Virus record (IMG/VR): IMGVR_UViG_2534682159_000005
Coordinates: 1 to 6,238 of that record
Reading direction: 5' to 3' (one strand)
Length of the DNA: 6,238 bases
Source: a virus
Taxonomy: Duplodnaviria > Heunggongvirae > Uroviricota > Caudoviricetes
Part shown: positions 1,711 through 3,585 of the stretch, in pieces
Layout of the letters: the number at the start of each line of letters is the position of its first letter
Position numbering within the stretch: the stretch's first letter is position 1
Made by a program: the position numbers and the translations under genes
Notes under the pieces: model-generated
Databases searched by the model: none
What the model saw: the letters and a program-made list of their open reading frames with translations, nothing else
What the model was told of the DNA's origin: nothing

Positions 1711-1740
1711 ATTGTAAACCAGAATGCCAGGAAAAAACAA
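1711..1740 (-). promoter_or_regulatory. Candidate sigma70 promoter for the 90-aa/ydfU-like/rusA transcription unit
   Basis: Minus strand TTGTTT (1740-1735), 18-nt spacer, TACAAT (1716-1711), about 50 nt upstream of ATG 1660. The -35 is weak and overlaps the U-tract of the hokD terminator. Confidence 0.2.
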
Positions 1741-1758
1741 AACCCGCAGAAGCGGGTT
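1731..1758 (-). terminator. Rho-independent terminator downstream of hokD
   Basis: Minus strand AACCCGC-TTCT-GCGGGTT followed by TTGTTTTTT (7-bp GC-rich stem, 4-nt loop, U-tract). On the plus strand the same hairpin has no following T-run, so it is oriented for minus-strand transcripts. Confidence 0.7.
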
Positions 1759-1761
1759 AAG

Positions 1762-1786
1762 TGCGGGTGCGTTGAGGATGCCTGAC
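1762..1786 (-). promoter_or_regulatory. 3' UTR element complementary to the hok mRNA 5' leader (fbi-like fold-back element)
   Basis: Plus-strand 1761-1777 GTGCGGGTGCGTTGAGG is the inverted repeat of plus-strand 2140-2154 CCTCAAGCACCCGCA (15 of 16 with one bulge, extendable to about 25 nt with mismatches). Both lie inside the predicted hokD transcript. Confidence 0.45.
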
Positions 1787-1797
1787 ACATCAGAGGT

Positions 1798-1819
1798 GGC
1801 GAGGGATTTCTCCCTCGCC
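1798..1819 (-). other. Perfect 9-bp stem hairpin with tetraloop immediately 3' of the hokD stop codon
   Basis: Minus strand GGCGAGGGA-GAAA-TCCCTCGCC begins 8 nt after the hokD stop. No U-tract follows, so it is more likely an mRNA structural or stability element than a terminator. Confidence 0.4.
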
Positions 1820-1826
1820 GGGTCTC

Positions 1827-1982
1827 TTACTTCTCAGATTCGTAAGCTGTGAAGACAGCGACCTCCGTCTGGCCGGTTCGGATTCGTACCTCGCAGAGGT
1901 CTTTCCTCGTTACCAGTACCGTTACAACGACGGTAATACAGATGACGATCAGGGCGATTAGCATCGCCTTTTGCTGCTTCAT
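1827..1982 (-). CDS. hokD: Hok/Gef family type I toxin (51 aa), HokD/RelF-like
   Basis: MKQQKAMLIALIVICITVVVTVLVTRKDLCEVRIRTGQTEVAVFTAYESEK: single transmembrane helix followed by the conserved RKDLCEVRIR..EVAVF..YE Hok signature, near-identical in pattern to HokD of E. coli K-12 as I recall it. ATG at 1982-1980 with AGGAG 8 nt upstream. The track ORF (1827..2039) extends 19 codons upstream in frame, probably not used. Confidence 0.85.
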   Translation of the reverse strand: MKQQKAMLIALIVICITVVVTVLVTRKDLCEVRIRTGQTEVAVFTAYESEK

Positions 1983-1995
1983 AGCCTGCTGCTCC

Positions 1996-2024
1996 TTGCC
2001 TTTCGGCGCATAAGAGGCTAATCT
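1996..2024 (+). promoter_or_regulatory. Candidate antisense promoter at the hok start region (possible Sok-like antisense RNA)
   Basis: Plus strand TTGCCT (1996-2001), 17-nt spacer, TAATCT (2019-2024). It would drive a transcript antisense to the hok leader (about 2031 onward). No clean terminator was found, so this is weakly supported. Confidence 0.2.
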
Positions 2025-2130
2025 AAGTGTGCAAGTCATAGATATGGCCTCAGATTAATGTTAAGCGTCCTGCAAGACGCATAATGTTAACTGGGGCTTT
2101 TCTCTGTCTGCCTTACGTCGGCATGCCCGA

Positions 2131-2154
2131 GGCAGACAGCCTCAAGCACCCGCA
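2131..2154 (-). promoter_or_regulatory. 5' leader element of hokD mRNA complementary to the 3' UTR (tac-like fold-back element)
   Basis: Minus-strand leader TGCGGGTGCTTGAGG (2154-2140) pairs with the 3' UTR segment at 1762-1777. It lies just downstream of the candidate -10 TAGAAT and is followed by a 9-bp stem hairpin (2139-2104). Confidence 0.45.
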
Positions 2155-2276: not shown

Positions 2277-2788
2277 CGTAAAATATTCTCCTCGTTTATC
2301 AGTCCGTTTCGCTTCAGGTAGTCCATCGCCTTATCCGGTAATTTGCAGTCCGGCTTCGCTTTTTTCAGTTGGCTGACCAGCCGTTTAACCCACATTGCTA
2401 ATTCGCTAACCTGATTGCCGGATGCTGGTGGATTGTCGGCTTTACCCAGAATGGCAGCACAGCAGGCCTCTCTGAGCACCCAGTCAACAGCATCCTTCCA
2501 TGCTCCTGTTTCGACTGGCGGATTCTCACGCTTTACCTGTTCATAAAAGCGCACAGCTTTAACCAGTCCTTCTGATGTCACCGGGACTGGCGGGCCGATG
2601 AATAAGGCCTGAATTTCATAGTTCGGCCTGTCGTTACAATCCTCTTTTGTCGGTACATATTTCCAGTCACCAGCCCACTGCTTCCCCTGAAAGTCTGTAA
2701 CGTCTTTTTTCACGTAGCGATATCGCCATGCAACTGGTTTTGCCTGCCCTGCCGTTTCATGCCCTTCCTGATAATTAATCTCGCTCAT
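2273..2788 (-). CDS. Hypothetical prophage protein (171 aa)
   Basis: ATG at 2788-2786 overlaps the stop of the upstream 58-aa gene (ATGA). Trp/Tyr-rich N-terminal half and a CC pair; no family recognised. Confidence 0.7.
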   Translation of the reverse strand: MSEINYQEGHETAGQAKPVAWRYRYVKKDVTDFQGKQWAGDWKYVPTKEDCNDRPNYEIQALFIGPPVPVTSEGLVKAVRFYEQVKRENPPVETGAWKDAVDWVLREACCAAILGKADNPPASGNQVSELAMWVKRLVSQLKKAKPDCKLPDKAMDYLKRNGLINEENILR

Positions 2789-2961
2789 TCATCGCCCCAC
2801 TCATCACAATATGCTTCGACCGGAGTTTTTCCTGCTTCATAGTCATCACGCCATGCTTCAGCATCGGCGGCACTTCCACCACGTAACTCTGCATAGTCCA
2901 TTAACAGTTCATGCCATTCTTCAAAACTGACGTTGTATTTAGTTGAACCAAAATCAGCCAT
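2785..2961 (-). CDS. Small acidic protein (58 aa), absent from the ORF track
   Basis: MADFGSTKYNVSFEEWHELLMDYAELRGGSAADAEAWRDDYEAGKTPVEAYCDEWGDE. ATG at 2961-2959 with AGGA 8 nt upstream. Its start overlaps the end of the 60-aa gene by 8 nt and its TGA stop overlaps the ATG of the 171-aa gene. Confidence 0.5.
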   Translation of the reverse strand: MADFGSTKYNVSFEEWHELLMDYAELRGGSAADAEAWRDDYEAGKTPVEAYCDEWGDE

Positions 2962-3136
2962 TTTGTTCTTCCTCTTCGTCTTTTATTTCGTGATATGAGT
3001 AATTGCAGTAGTTAAAGAAAATTTCTTTTGCTTCGTCATGAATTTCATCAGGTGTTGCGTCATCGTCCACTTCGAATACATCCTCAAAATCTCCACCGGC
3101 TATTCCCGTTTCAATAATTATTTTGAACTTTCGCAT
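2954..3136 (-). CDS. Small highly acidic protein (60 aa), AT-rich gene
   Basis: MRKFKIIIETGIAGGDFEDVFEVDDDATPDEIHDEAKEIFFNYCNYSYHEIKDEEEEQNG. It is the first ATG in frame after an upstream stop. GC content is visibly lower than the flanking genes, and a 92-bp intergenic region with a palindrome lies upstream. Confidence 0.6.
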   Translation of the reverse strand: MRKFKIIIETGIAGGDFEDVFEVDDDATPDEIHDEAKEIFFNYCNYSYHEIKDEEEEQNG

Positions 3137-3208
3137 TTCATTACCGCCCTGCCGGGCGGTCTCCTGATGTTCTGAGGGTGCAGAAATCCCTCCTGTTAAG
3201 GATTAATT

Positions 3209-3223
3209 TTTAGCAGTGCTAAA
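3209..3223. promoter_or_regulatory. 15-bp palindrome TTTAGCA-G-TGCTAAA in an AT-rich intergenic region (candidate operator/promoter element)
   Basis: Perfect 7-bp arms around one central base, in the 92-bp gap between the 118-aa gene stop (3229) and the 60-aa gene start (3136). Flanked by A/T-rich sequence with -10-like hexamers (TAAAAT). Confidence 0.35.
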
Positions 3224-3228
3224 TTTAA

Positions 3229-3585
3229 TTATTCAGTTCTGGATTTTGTCGCCCTGCGTATCCGCGCTTTCGCGTTACGCTCAATCTGAATTAGCTTTCC
3301 TATATTTTTTCGCCTTTCCTGTTCCTCCAGGCGCAATAGCTTTACATCATCTGCCAGTCTGGTTTCTCTTTTCGCCACAGAGAGCATCCAGTCAAACGGC
3401 TCCACAACTGAACCGCAGATTTTACAGCGGACCTGACGCTCTTTTTCGTCAACCCGAACAGAGGCGTGATGACAATATGGTCTTTCCGATGGCTCATAAA
3501 GAAAATTAACCTGATTACGAGGGTCATCCTCTTTTACCGGAAATAAAACGATATTGCTTAACTCATCCTCTGGTTTTATTTCCAT
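3229..3585 (-). CDS. Zinc-ribbon protein with basic coiled-coil tail (118 aa), function unknown
   Basis: ATG at 3585-3583 with AAGGAGAGGAG just upstream. C-x-H-H ... C-K-I-C-G spacing suggests a zinc ribbon, and the C-terminus is Arg/Lys/Glu-rich. Overlaps the end of the upstream gene by 23 nt. Confidence 0.7.
   Translation of the reverse strand: MEIKPEDELSNIVLFPVKEDDPRNQVNFLYEPSERPYCHHASVRVDEKERQVRCKICGSVVEPFDWMLSVAKRETRLADDVKLLRLEEQERRKNIGKLIQIERNAKARIRRATKSRTE

What the first reader, a model, noticed from the sequence alone, without database searches (positions are those of the whole stretch)
2954..3228. AT-rich moron-like gene with its own upstream palindromic operator and a hairpin that sequesters its ribosome-binding region
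The 60-aa gene is clearly more AT-rich than its neighbours and is preceded by the only sizeable intergenic gap in the gene train (92 bp). That gap contains a perfect palindrome TTTAGCA-G-TGCTAAA (3209-3223) and -10-like hexamers. Eight nt upstream of the ATG, a GC hairpin (CCGCCC-GGCA-GGGCGG, plus-strand 3144-3159) includes the only SD-like GGCGG. This looks like an independently regulated insertion inside the operon.
Basis: seen in the sequence. Interest (0 to 1): 0.45.

Follow-up and report, generated by a model that had tools for sequence, protein, structure and literature searches.

The report
Portable split ribosome-binding linker in prophages
The gap before this small AT-rich prophage gene is a conserved, reusable linker found in about 38% of complete E. 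coli genomes, and its GC hairpin most likely folds a strong ribosome-binding signal next to the start codon rather than hiding one; the palindrome called an operator is a chance variant.

Summary
The sequence facts check out. The palindrome (3209-3223), the GC hairpin (3144-3159) and the low GC of the 60-aa gene (0.366; lowest 1.5% of 183-bp windows) are all real. The interpretation mostly fails.

- **Palindrome:** it is perfect in only 5 of 220 homologous copies and is not rarer than chance.
- **Promoter and terminator:** no credible promoter or terminator flanks the gene.

The 68-nt core of the gap (3137-3204) recurs in 2072 of 5426 complete E. coli genomes, with up to 4 copies per genome. 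It joins 9 upstream to 20 downstream sequence clusters in 39 combinations, so it is a mosaic junction linker.

Its 3' half is SD, a 7-bp GC stem with a tetraloop (-15 kcal/mol), 6-9 nt, then ATG. That is the anatomy of the experimentally proven split ribosome-binding site of T4 gene 38. Stem variants preserve pairing on the sense RNA (C>U 52 copies versus G>A 5 at one pair).

When the same downstream gene families lack the unit, they carry an ordinary SD. The gene (DUF7167, function unknown) always travels with the overlapping 58-aa gene.

Function is inferred, not shown.

The parts
2954..3136 (-). 60-aa acidic protein gene of the DUF7167 family (pI 4.1, function unknown). It is the AT-rich gene of the finding.
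   Evidence: ORF listed. Pfam PF23768 E=2.4e-14 (53.6 bits against a cut-off of 24.4) and phrog_1997 E=2e-30. RefSeq names it 'DUF7167 family protein' in the 100% identical locus. GC 0.366 and GC3 0.33. AlphaFold model is beta-beta-alpha-beta-alpha at pLDDT 79, with no significant fold match.
2785..2961 (-). 58-aa gene that overlaps the DUF7167 stop by 8 nt (ATGGCTGA). It is the obligate partner of DUF7167 in the mobile two-gene unit.
   Evidence: It is preceded by the DUF7167 3' end in 57 of 57 occurrences. GC3 is 0.31. phrog_519.
3225..3235 (-). TGAATAATTAA, which gives stop codons in all three frames. The middle TAA (3231-3229) ends the upstream 118-aa gene. This marks the 5' edge of the conserved linker.
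   Evidence: Read directly. CTGAATAATTAA is conserved behind several different upstream genes.
3209..3223 (.). Perfect palindrome TTTAGCA-N-TGCTAAA inside the AT-rich part of the linker. It is a local variant and is not conserved as a palindrome.
   Evidence: Coordinates confirmed. It is perfect in 5 of 220 copies. Palindromes of this size are not enriched over shuffles.
3188..3204 (-). 'Half A', AATCCTTAACAGGAGGG, containing the first SD-like GGAGGG (3193-3188). In 54 of 210 related copies this SD directly drives a ~70-aa gene inserted at this point.
3174..3192 (-). Predicted hairpin 1: GAGGG (3192-3188) paired with CCCTC (3178-3174) across a 9-nt loop. It would bury the unused first SD. Support is thermodynamic only.
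   Evidence: -7.2 kcal/mol, and P(unpaired) of SD1 is 0.21. It appears in the RNAalifold consensus, but no pair covaries.
3161..3165 (-). Functional Shine-Dalgarno candidate AGGAG (AGGAGG in 149 of 194 copies). It is single-stranded and directly abuts the hairpin.
   Evidence: P(unpaired) is 0.74. The anti-SD duplex is -7.4 kcal/mol for the window and -10.3 for the consensus. TCAGGAGG abuts the hairpin in 149 of 194 copies.
3143..3160 (-). Hairpin 2: a 7-bp stem A-CCGCCC / GGGCGG-U with tetraloop GGCA (GAAA in most copies), about -15 kcal/mol. It lies wholly between the SD and the AUG.
   Evidence: Stem variation is biased towards pairs allowed on the sense RNA, and there is one compensatory change.
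3137..3142 (-). A/U-rich 6-nt spacer (AAUGAA) between the hairpin and the AUG at 3136-3134.
   Evidence: Spacing from the 6-bp core hairpin to the start codon is 6-9 nt in 177 of 202 copies, and only 5 of 182 spacers hold any SD-like tetramer.

Best explanation
The 92-bp gap is not a private promoter/operator region. It is one copy of a conserved, portable intergenic linker of Escherichia/Shigella lambdoid prophages. The window is the early-right operon of a Rac-like prophage, read on the minus strand.

In order, the linker contains:
1. Stop codons in all three frames.
2. A short AT-rich stretch.
3. A first SD (GGAGGG) that is unused here and probably folded away in a weak hairpin.
4. A split ribosome-binding site: a free AGGAG(G), a very stable 7-bp GC hairpin with a tetraloop, 6-9 A/U-rich nt, and the ATG.

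In the linear sequence the SD lies 23-24 nt from the ATG, too far to work. With the hairpin folded it lies about 6-7 nt away. The hairpin therefore acts as a structural spacer that assembles the initiation site, as shown experimentally for T4 genes 38 and 25. It does not act as a lock on the site.

The upstream gene ends 92 nt away, so translational coupling is impossible and the linker restarts translation de novo for whatever gene follows.

Because the same ~68-nt sequence sits between many unrelated gene pairs, it also offers homology for recombination. That lets accessory genes be swapped in and out. One such cargo is the AT-rich DUF7167 + 58-aa pair.

What is shown and what is inferred:
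- Shown: the anatomy, conservation, distribution, mosaic junction role and strand-specific conservation of the stem.
- Inferred: that the upstream SD is the one used, that the hairpin enhances initiation, and that recombination actually occurs through the linker.
For: **Identity and context**
- The window is 100% identical to a Rac-like prophage of E. coli P15-385. The gene order is racR, O/P, DUF1627, DUF4406, ead/Ea22, 118-aa gene, [linker], DUF7167, 58-aa gene, 171-aa gene, hok, DUF968, RusA.

**Linker conservation and spread**
- Short BLAST hits in other phages cover only 3137-3207 and lie upstream of different genes.
- The block is present in 2072 of 5426 complete E. coli genomes, at 2576 places and up to 4 per genome.
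- Among one genome per species it is found only in Escherichia/Shigella.

**Junction role**
- 147 compact copies join 9 upstream and 20 downstream sequence clusters in 39 combinations.
- Homology breakpoints of other phages against the window fall at 3236, 3182 and 3137, which are the linker edges.

**Split-RBS anatomy**
- TCAGGAGG abuts the hairpin in 149 of 194 copies.
- The start codon lies 6-11 nt after the hairpin in 182 of 202 copies, and only 5 of those 182 have any SD-like tetramer in that spacer.
- The hairpin is -15.2 kcal/mol and its 3' arm has P(unpaired) 0.00. The upstream AGGAG has P(unpaired) 0.74 and the AUG 0.75.
- Other genes of the train carry AGGAGG/GGAGGU-type SDs at 2-7 nt.

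**Natural controls**
- The same downstream families without the unit carry a canonical SD 4-9 nt from the start: AAAGGAGAGTGAT|GTG and TAAGGAAAACTGAA|ATG.

**Precedent, read directly**
- The T4 gene 38 site is AAGGAG, an 8-bp GC stem with UUCG loop, about 6 nt, then AUG, at -16.7 kcal/mol. The window's equivalent is -16.6.
- The literature reports that this structure reduces a 22-nt spacing to 5 nt, and that destabilising it lowers initiation (PMC3014915; PMC7297116).

**Selection on the sense-strand RNA stem**
- In the sample, C>T changes number 18 against 5 G>A (p=0.005).
- In exhaustive IMG/VR scans, pair 4-13 shows C>U (still U.G) in 52 copies across at least 4 downstream and 8 upstream contexts, against G>A (C.A) in 5 copies.
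- G12>H occurs 0 times and G15>H once.
- Where G3>A occurs, the partner is U in 7 of 22 copies, against about 1.5% otherwise.
Against: - No experiment bears on this element. Nothing here shows which SD is used.
- Sequence diversity is low: copies are about 90-100% identical and confined to one genus. The counts of stem variants count copies, not independent events. The 7 compensated copies share one downstream context and may be a single event.
- An uncompensated A.C variant persists in 15 copies, so the constraint is not absolute.
- In the window the SD is the weaker AGGAGA (-7.4 kcal/mol) and the loop is GGCA, not a GNRA loop.
- Five copies carry their own SD after the hairpin (GGGCGG-TGGAGATAATA-ATG). 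There the upstream SD is dispensable.
- High conservation could reflect recent spread by recombination rather than selection for translation.
- A weak promoter (GCGACA-18-TTAAAT, 8/12) just upstream of the palindrome cannot be excluded by sequence alone.
Confidence: 0.55

Rival explanations
1. The gene is a moron with its own promoter in the gap. The palindrome is its operator. The hairpin sequesters the only SD (GGCGG), so translation is off until the hairpin is opened.
For: - The palindrome and hairpin exist as described.
- The gene is compositionally distinct.
- The 3' arm GGGCGGU could pair with the anti-SD if melted: -6.2 to -7.9 kcal/mol at about 6 nt from the AUG.
- A weak -35/-10 pair (8/12) would put a transcription start inside the palindrome.
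Against: - The palindrome is perfect in 5 of 220 copies and is not enriched over chance.
- No promoter passes the scan, and the 8/12 match is at background frequency.
- No terminator follows the unit, and the gene is overlapped by the next gene.
- Opening the hairpin costs about 15 kcal/mol to expose a mismatched SD, while a perfect, free AGGAGG sits next to it in most copies.
Confidence: 0.08
2. The hairpin is the operator for an RNA-binding translational regulator, from phage or host. That regulator co-regulates the several accessory genes that carry the unit, giving a small post-transcriptional regulon. This would resemble the thrS split RBS, whose intervening hairpin binds ThrRS, or phage coat-protein and RegA-type repression.
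For: - The stem sequence, not only its pairing, is nearly invariant, and there are up to 4 copies per genome ahead of unrelated genes.
- The loop keeps G at position 1 and A at position 4 in most variants: GAAA, GGCA, GGAA, GAGA.
- A precedent exists for an operator hairpin inside a split RBS (thrS; PMC7297116).
Against: - No candidate binding protein was identified.
- Near-invariance is equally explained by recent spread plus selection for stability.
- The loop changes GAAA to GGCA in the window's lineage without loss of the element.
- No Rfam family matches the region.
Confidence: 0.1
3. The linker is only a recombination scar or homology patch. The hairpin serves mRNA stability or processing (a 3'-exonuclease barrier for the upstream segment), or nothing. 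Translation of the downstream gene relies on A/U-rich, S1-dependent or SD-independent initiation.
For: - The junction role is very clear, with 39 flank combinations.
- The compact form looks like a longer form minus a ~70-aa gene. Both ends align, but the middle 17 nt does not.
- The spacer and upstream region are A/U-rich.
Against: - The SD-hairpin-spacing relationship is tight: 6-9 nt in 177 of 202 copies.
- The SD directly abuts the stem in nearly all copies.
- Substitutions in the stem are strand-asymmetric, as expected for an RNA under selection.
- Family members without the unit have an ordinary SD instead.
Confidence: 0.17
4. The block is a transcription-level element. It could be an N-utilisation or put-like antitermination RNA (UCCUUAAC resembles boxA from memory, followed by two stem-loops), or a weak factor-dependent terminator inside the early operon.
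For: - There are two stem-loops within about 60 nt inside an antiterminated early operon.
- The resemblance of CCUUAAC to boxA is recalled from memory only.
Against: - No Rfam family matches, even at E<=1.
- There is no U-tract after either hairpin, and the terminator scan is negative here.
- The element occurs mid-operon, in several copies, always ending 6-9 nt before a start codon. That position fits translation, not antitermination.
- In 54 copies the two halves are split by a whole gene.
Confidence: 0.03

Closest known systems
Split (noncontiguous) ribosome-binding sites of bacteriophage T4 genes 38 and 25 (Gold 1988; Nivinskas et al. 1999; Malys & Nivinskas 2009, as reviewed in PMC3014915)
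   Same: - The SD and AUG are too far apart in the linear sequence: 23-24 nt here, against 22 nt (gene 38) and 27 nt (gene 25) in T4.
- A stable GC stem capped by a tetraloop fills the interval and brings them to 5-11 nt.
- The SD abuts the stem, and an A/U-rich spacer follows it.
- Folding energy is nearly identical to T4 gene 38 over equal lengths: -16.6 against -16.7 kcal/mol.
   Different: - There is no sequence relationship.
- The host phages are temperate lambdoid prophages, not T-even phages.
- The T4 sites are each tied to one gene. This unit is portable and precedes at least 8 unrelated gene families, in up to 4 copies per genome.
- Function is proven for T4 and only inferred here.
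Conserved boundary (linker) sequences at lambdoid mosaic junctions, and PeSL mobile regulatory cassettes of T4-type phages (Arbiol et al. 2010, PMC2839356)
   Same: A short conserved intergenic sequence, repeated within and between genomes, flanks variable accessory genes and marks the breakpoints of module exchange. PeSLs are likewise regulatory cassettes containing a stem-loop.
   Different: PeSLs are promoter-plus-terminator cassettes that act on transcription. This linker shows no promoter or terminator. Its parts are translational: three-frame stops, an SD, and a hairpin-spaced start. No recombination products or mini-circles have been shown here.
E. coli thrS split ribosome-binding site with an operator hairpin (Sacerdot et al. 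1998, cited in PMC7297116)
   Same: A strong stem-loop interrupts the ribosome-binding region.
   Different: In thrS the hairpin is a protein-binding operator, and it separates an upstream enhancer region from a normally spaced SD. Here the SD itself is upstream of the hairpin, and no binding protein is known.
Morons of lambdoid phages (Juhala et al. 2000, as described in PMC4104026)
   Same: It is an extra, compositionally distinct accessory gene whose presence varies between related prophages.
   Different: It has no promoter or terminator of its own. It is embedded in, and overlapped with, the early operon. It also travels as a two-gene unit.

Membership tests
Split ribosome-binding site (T4 gene 38/25 type) | The SD is separated from the start codon by a linear distance too long for initiation (more than about 15 nt). 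| tested here: met
   AGGAG at 3165-3161 and ATG at 3136: 24 nt between them, or 23 nt in the AGGAGG consensus.
Split ribosome-binding site (T4 gene 38/25 type) | A stable hairpin lies wholly between SD and AUG. Folding reduces the spacing to about 5-11 nt, and the SD and AUG themselves stay unpaired. | tested here: met
   7-bp stem at -15.2 kcal/mol with pair probabilities of 1.0. P(unpaired) is 0.74 for the SD and 0.75 for the AUG. 6 nt remain after the stem. Same layout as the T4 gene 38 site read.
Split ribosome-binding site (T4 gene 38/25 type) | No other accessible SD lies at canonical spacing. | tested here: met
   The only proximal candidate, GGGCGGU, is fully paired with P(unpaired) 0.00. 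177 of 182 copies have no SD-like tetramer in the spacer.
Split ribosome-binding site (T4 gene 38/25 type) | The structure is conserved among relatives. | tested here: inconclusive
   Pairing is kept in 93-100% of unique variants. Substitutions are biased to U.G (52 against 5 at one pair), and there is one compensatory A-U change. Diversity is low, however, and copies are not independent events.
Split ribosome-binding site (T4 gene 38/25 type) | Destabilising the hairpin lowers translation, and compensatory changes restore it. | not testable with these tools
   This needs reporter fusions, toeprinting and structure probing.
Moron (autonomous extra gene in a lambdoid phage) | The gene has its own promoter. 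| tested here: not met
   No sigma-70-like site lies in 3137-3270. The best relaxed match is 8/12, at background frequency. A sequence scan cannot exclude a weak or non-canonical promoter.
Moron (autonomous extra gene in a lambdoid phage) | The gene has its own terminator downstream. | tested here: not met
   The gene overlaps the next gene by 8 nt. The first terminator-like site on this strand lies beyond hok, at 1758-1741.
Moron (autonomous extra gene in a lambdoid phage) | Its composition differs from its neighbours, and its presence varies between related phages. | tested here: met
   GC 0.366 and GC3 0.33. The downstream cargo of the linker varies across 20 clusters.
Palindromic operator of a DNA-binding repressor | The dyad symmetry is conserved in homologous loci and is rarer than chance. 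| tested here: not met
   It is perfect in 5 of 220 copies, and most copies have arms of 4-5 nt. The window holds 3 palindromes of this size against 1.29 expected.
Conserved boundary/linker sequence at phage mosaic junctions | The same short intergenic sequence is flanked by unrelated sequences on both sides in different genomes, and homology breakpoints fall at its edges. | tested here: met
   9 upstream by 20 downstream clusters in 39 combinations. Breakpoints at 3236, 3182 and 3137. 2576 copies in 2072 genomes.
PeSL-type mobile regulatory cassette (T4-type phages) | A strong early promoter plus a stem-loop that terminates transcription. | tested here: not met
   There is no promoter-like site and no U-tract after either hairpin. 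The comparison is therefore an analogy of role only.
Intrinsic terminator | A GC-rich stem followed by a U-tract. | tested here: not met
   The stem is followed by UAAUGAAAUG. The terminator scan does not call it on either strand.
Known RNA families (Rfam 15) | A covariance-model match. | tested here: not met
   No match in 3137-3240, even at E<=1. The only strong hit in the window is sok, at 1977-2151.
DUF7167 (Pfam PF23768) | A profile match above the gathering score. | tested here: met
   53.6 bits against a cut-off of 24.4, covering residues 2-53.

The most novel reading that the evidence does not exclude
Lambdoid prophages of E. coli carry a dedicated plug-and-play translation cassette made of three-frame stops, a hidden spare SD, and a hairpin-assembled split RBS. 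It would do two jobs. First, it would make any downstream accessory gene translatable regardless of its sequence context. Second, it would serve as the homology patch through which Red/RecET-type recombination shuffles such genes between the early-left and early-right operons of different prophages. That would make it a translational counterpart of the T4 PeSL cassettes and the first split RBS shown to be a mobile, multi-copy element.
Probability: 0.3. Interest if true: 0.6.

Novelty: new variant of a known kind. Interest (0 to 1): 0.4.

Why it matters
- **Split RBSs are rare.** Hairpin-spaced ribosome-binding sites are textbook curiosities known from a few single loci (T4 genes 38 and 25). 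Here the same design appears as a reusable unit in about 38% of complete E. coli genomes, ahead of many unrelated small prophage genes.
- **It bears on phage mosaicism.** If the element is functional, it gives a concrete, testable example of the long-debated 'conserved boundary sequence' route to lambdoid mosaicism.
- **It affects annotation.** Gene callers mis-start these genes: 87-93 aa versions of the 60-aa protein exist because the SD is not where software expects it.
- **It may be useful.** The unit could serve as a compact natural insulator RBS for synthetic biology.
- **It corrects the finding.** There is no sign of a private promoter/operator switch or of a locked RBS.

Tried and rejected
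- **Rfam.** A search of the whole window at E<=1 found nothing in the gap.
- **Promoter and terminator scans.** These found nothing in or next to the gap. Relaxed promoter scoring gave only a background-level 8/12 match.
- **Cross-species search.** One genome per species gave only Escherichia/Shigella. The 9 hits in unrelated MAGs are at the number expected by chance for 18 specified bases. No deep covariation test was therefore possible.
- **E. coli K-12 Rac.** It lacks the unit, so K-12 transcriptomic knowledge does not apply.
- **Literature.** There are no papers on DUF7167, and the hairpin sequence appears in no paper of the library. The EHEC prophage sRNAs of Tree et al. map downstream of PR', not here.
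- **Protein function.** There are no PADLOC hits for this gene or its four neighbours. There is no PDB sequence relative beyond a marginal uL23 match. No structural match reaches E<=0.001 in PDB or BFVD. Similarities to small phage inhibitor proteins (T7 Gp2, p56, AcrIC9) are non-significant and not used.
- **Is the block coding?** I considered that it might be an N-terminal extension or a leader peptide. I rejected this because the distance to the start codon varies (6, 7, 8, 9, 11 nt), which breaks the frame, and an in-frame TAA precedes it in the window.
- **Hairpin 1.** It has no covariation support and may be a by-product of loss of the ~70-aa gene.
Full report
**Context**

The window is a run of genes on the minus strand that belongs to a lambdoid prophage. 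It is 100% identical to a Rac-like prophage of E. coli P15-385. There the gene order is racR, cro-like HTH, YdaT-like, O/P replication genes, DUF1627, DNA-binding protein, DUF4406, ead/Ea22-like, a 118-aa hypothetical, DUF7167, a 58-aa and a 171-aa hypothetical, hok, DUF968, RusA. The finding therefore lies in the accessory, nin-like part of the early-right operon.

**Checking the observation**

- The palindrome is TTTAGCAGTGCTAAA at 3209-3223.
- The hairpin is CCGCCC-GGCA-GGGCGG on the sense strand at 3159-3144.
- The ORF is 60 aa, at 2954-3136.
- The gap upstream is 92 bp.

The gene is the most AT-rich in the window. Its GC is 0.366, against a mean of 0.519, which puts it in the lowest 1.5% of 183-bp windows. 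The bias holds at third codon positions, with GC3 of 0.33. The overlapping 58-aa gene shares it (GC3 0.31), while distal genes have GC3 of 0.54-0.62. Amino-acid composition contributes as well: 19 of 60 residues are Asp or Glu, and GC2 is 0.22.

Three statements do not hold:
- The gap is not the only sizeable one, since gaps of 233 and 148 bp flank hok.
- The palindrome is not statistically unusual, since the window has 3 of that size against 1.29 +/- 1.29 in shuffles.
- GGCGG is not the only SD-like sequence, since AGGAG lies at 3165-3161 and GGAGGG at 3193-3188.

**What the gap is**

BLAST against phage genomes showed that some phages match only about 3137-3207, the intergenic piece, upstream of entirely different genes. 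Pattern scans of IMG/VR returned over 200 loci. The conserved core reads AATCCTTAAC-N-GGAGGG-ATTTCTGCA-CCCTC-AGAACATC-AGGAG(G)-CCGCCC-GAAA-GGGCGG-TAATGAA-ATG.

The wider linker starts at CTGAATAATTAA, which places stop codons in all three frames (3235-3225 in the window). That string is conserved behind several different upstream genes.

The element's distribution and role:
- The core is present in 2072 of 5426 complete E. coli genomes, at 2576 places and up to four per genome.
- Among one genome per species it occurs only in Escherichia/Shigella. The other hits match the number expected by chance.
- In 147 copies it joins 9 upstream and 20 downstream sequence clusters in 39 combinations.
- The homology breakpoints of other phages against the window fall at its edges: 3236, 3182 and 3137.

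It is therefore a conserved mosaic-junction linker, not a private regulatory region of this gene.

**The palindrome and the promoter**

In 220 copies of the homologous segment the perfect 7-nt-arm palindrome occurs 5 times. Loci with the same upstream gene read TTTAGCTCTGTTAAA, TTTAGCACTGTTAAA or TTTAGCGCTGTAAAT. The window's version is one substitution away from the common imperfect forms.

The sigma-70 scan finds nothing in the region. The best relaxed match, GCGACA-18-TTAAAT, scores 8/12, a score that about 0.5% of all positions in the window reach. No terminator follows the gene. Its stop overlaps the start of the 58-aa gene (ATGGCTGA), and that gene follows DUF7167 in 57 of 57 cases. The gene is thus part of a two-gene cargo inside the operon and is not an autonomous moron.

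**The hairpin**

The sense-strand stem is 7 bp (A-CCGCCC/GGGCGG-U) at about -15 kcal/mol, with pair probabilities of 1.0. Its 3' arm is never free.

The key point is what lies next to it. TCAGGAGG directly abuts the 5' side in 149 of 194 copies; the window has TCAGGAGA. This SD is mostly unpaired, with P(unpaired) 0.74. Its anti-SD duplex is -7.4 kcal/mol in the window and -10.3 in the consensus.

The start codon follows the hairpin by 6-11 nt in 182 of 202 copies. Only 5 of those 182 have any SD-like tetramer in that spacer. Other genes in the train use AGGAGG or GGAGGU at 2-7 nt. Linearly, the SD is 23-24 nt from the ATG. With the hairpin folded it is 6-7 nt away.

This is the layout of the split ribosome-binding sites of T4 genes 38 and 25. 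In those sites a hairpin reduces 22 or 27 nt to 5 or 11 nt, and destabilising it lowers initiation (PMC3014915; PMC7297116). I read the T4 gene 38 site directly. It is AAGGAG, an 8-bp GC stem with a UUCG loop, about 6 nt, then AUG, at -16.7 kcal/mol. The equivalent window segment is -16.6.

**Natural-variation tests**

*Same genes without the unit.* Gene families that occur both with and without the unit carry an ordinary SD 4-9 nt from the start when the unit is absent: AAAGGAGAGTGAT|GTG and TAAGGAAAACTGAA|ATG. This suggests the unit supplies the SD function.

*Direction of stem substitutions.* Stem substitutions are strand-asymmetric, as expected for an RNA on the sense strand:
- In the first sample C>T outnumbers G>A by 18 to 5 (p=0.005).
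- In exhaustive IMG/VR scans, base pair 4-13 shows C>U (still U.G) in 52 copies. These are spread over at least 4 downstream and 8 upstream contexts.
- The same pair shows only 5 copies with the pair-breaking G>A.
- Changes of G12 and G15 occur 0 and 1 times.
- Where G3 is A, the partner is U in 7 of 22 copies, against about 1.5% otherwise.

*Caveats.* Copies are not independent events, and the 7 compensated copies share one context. An uncompensated A.C form persists in 15 copies.

**Other parts of the linker**

In 54 of 210 copies a ~70-aa gene sits between the first SD and the SD-hairpin unit, and the first SD then drives that gene. The compact form in the window shares both ends with the long form, but its middle 17 nt does not align.

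In the compact form the unused first SD can pair with CCCTC (-7.2 kcal/mol; P(unpaired) 0.21). No covariation supports that hairpin.

The block is not coding. The distance to the start codon varies by non-multiples of three, and an in-frame TAA precedes it in the window. Some gene callers nevertheless extend the ORF through it, giving 87-93 aa versions.

**The protein**

The 60-aa product is DUF7167 / phrog_1997. It has a pI of 4.1 and is found almost only in E. coli. AlphaFold predicts a beta-beta-alpha-beta-alpha fold at pLDDT 79.

No significant relative or fold match turned up in PDB, BFVD or PADLOC, and no paper mentions the family. Its function remains unknown. The best I can say is that it is a small acidic early accessory protein.

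**Verdict**

The best-supported reading is a portable intergenic linker. Its 3' half is a hairpin-assembled split ribosome-binding site, and its repeated, conserved sequence marks, and probably mediates, the exchange of accessory genes.

- **Shown:** the anatomy, spread, junction role and RNA-strand bias.
- **Inferred by analogy with T4 genes 38 and 25:** the effect on translation.
- **Inferred from the pattern of mosaicism:** the recombination role.

It is best described as a new variant of two known kinds: the split RBS and the conserved boundary cassette.

Noticed in passing
window 1827-2151, minus strand: A complete hok/sok type I toxin-antitoxin locus. Rfam sok scores 113 bits at 1977-2151, and the Hok/Gef ORF ends at 1827 (MKQQKAMLIALIVICITVVVTVLVTRKDLCEVRIRTGQTEVAVFTAYESEK). 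It accounts for the 233-bp and 148-bp 'gaps' in the gene train.
   Followed up: partly
window 1737-1818, minus strand: A sub-threshold match to the Gifsy-1 prophage sRNA IsrK (29.3 bits against a gathering score of 50, E=0.002). It ends at the only canonical intrinsic terminator of the train (AACCCGC-TTCT-GCGGGTT + TTGTTTTTT, 1758-1741). This may be an IsrK-like sRNA or attenuator downstream of hok.
   Followed up: no
window 3225-3235, minus strand: TGAATAATTAA places stop codons in all three frames at the 5' edge of the linker. It is conserved behind several unrelated upstream genes.
   Followed up: partly
L004 339-620 and 54 other IMG/VR loci: This is a long form of the linker. A ~70-aa gene (MLNTQKTINAEKYNEWVKKF...) sits between the first SD (AATCCTTAACCGGAGG-7 nt-ATG) and the SD-hairpin unit. 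Half-A-to-hairpin distance is 246 nt, against 45 nt in the compact form.
   Followed up: partly
proteins P0001, P0003, P0004, P0010: Public annotations of this gene include 84-93 aa versions that start upstream and read through the linker (MNFIKSLTGGISAPSEHQEAARKGGSE-...). These are probably mis-called starts caused by the unusual RBS. In P0003 (139 member sequences) the normal ATG is replaced (…GGSERRKF…).
   Followed up: no
IMG/VR locus (N-terminus MRKFRKNKMADFGSTKY...): A natural deletion fuses the first codons of DUF7167 to the 58-aa gene. The DUF7167 body can therefore be lost while the linker and its partner gene remain.
   Followed up: no
PP818812.1 11316-11855 (H11): A record named Actinobacillus phage vB_Apl-pPE4 carries 540 bp that is 95% identical to this E. 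coli prophage segment, including the linker and an Ead/Ea22-like gene. That is unexpected for a Pasteurellaceae host. It suggests either an E. coli-type prophage or a host misassignment.
   Followed up: no
KU052037.1 (L003 707-1472): In phage Rac-SA53 an IS1 element is inserted about 30 nt downstream of the SD-hairpin unit, truncating the gene that followed it.
   Followed up: no
window 3014-3028: A second perfect palindrome, AAAGAAAATTTCTTT, lies inside the DUF7167 coding sequence. It is one of the three palindromes in the window with arms of at least 7 nt.
   Followed up: no
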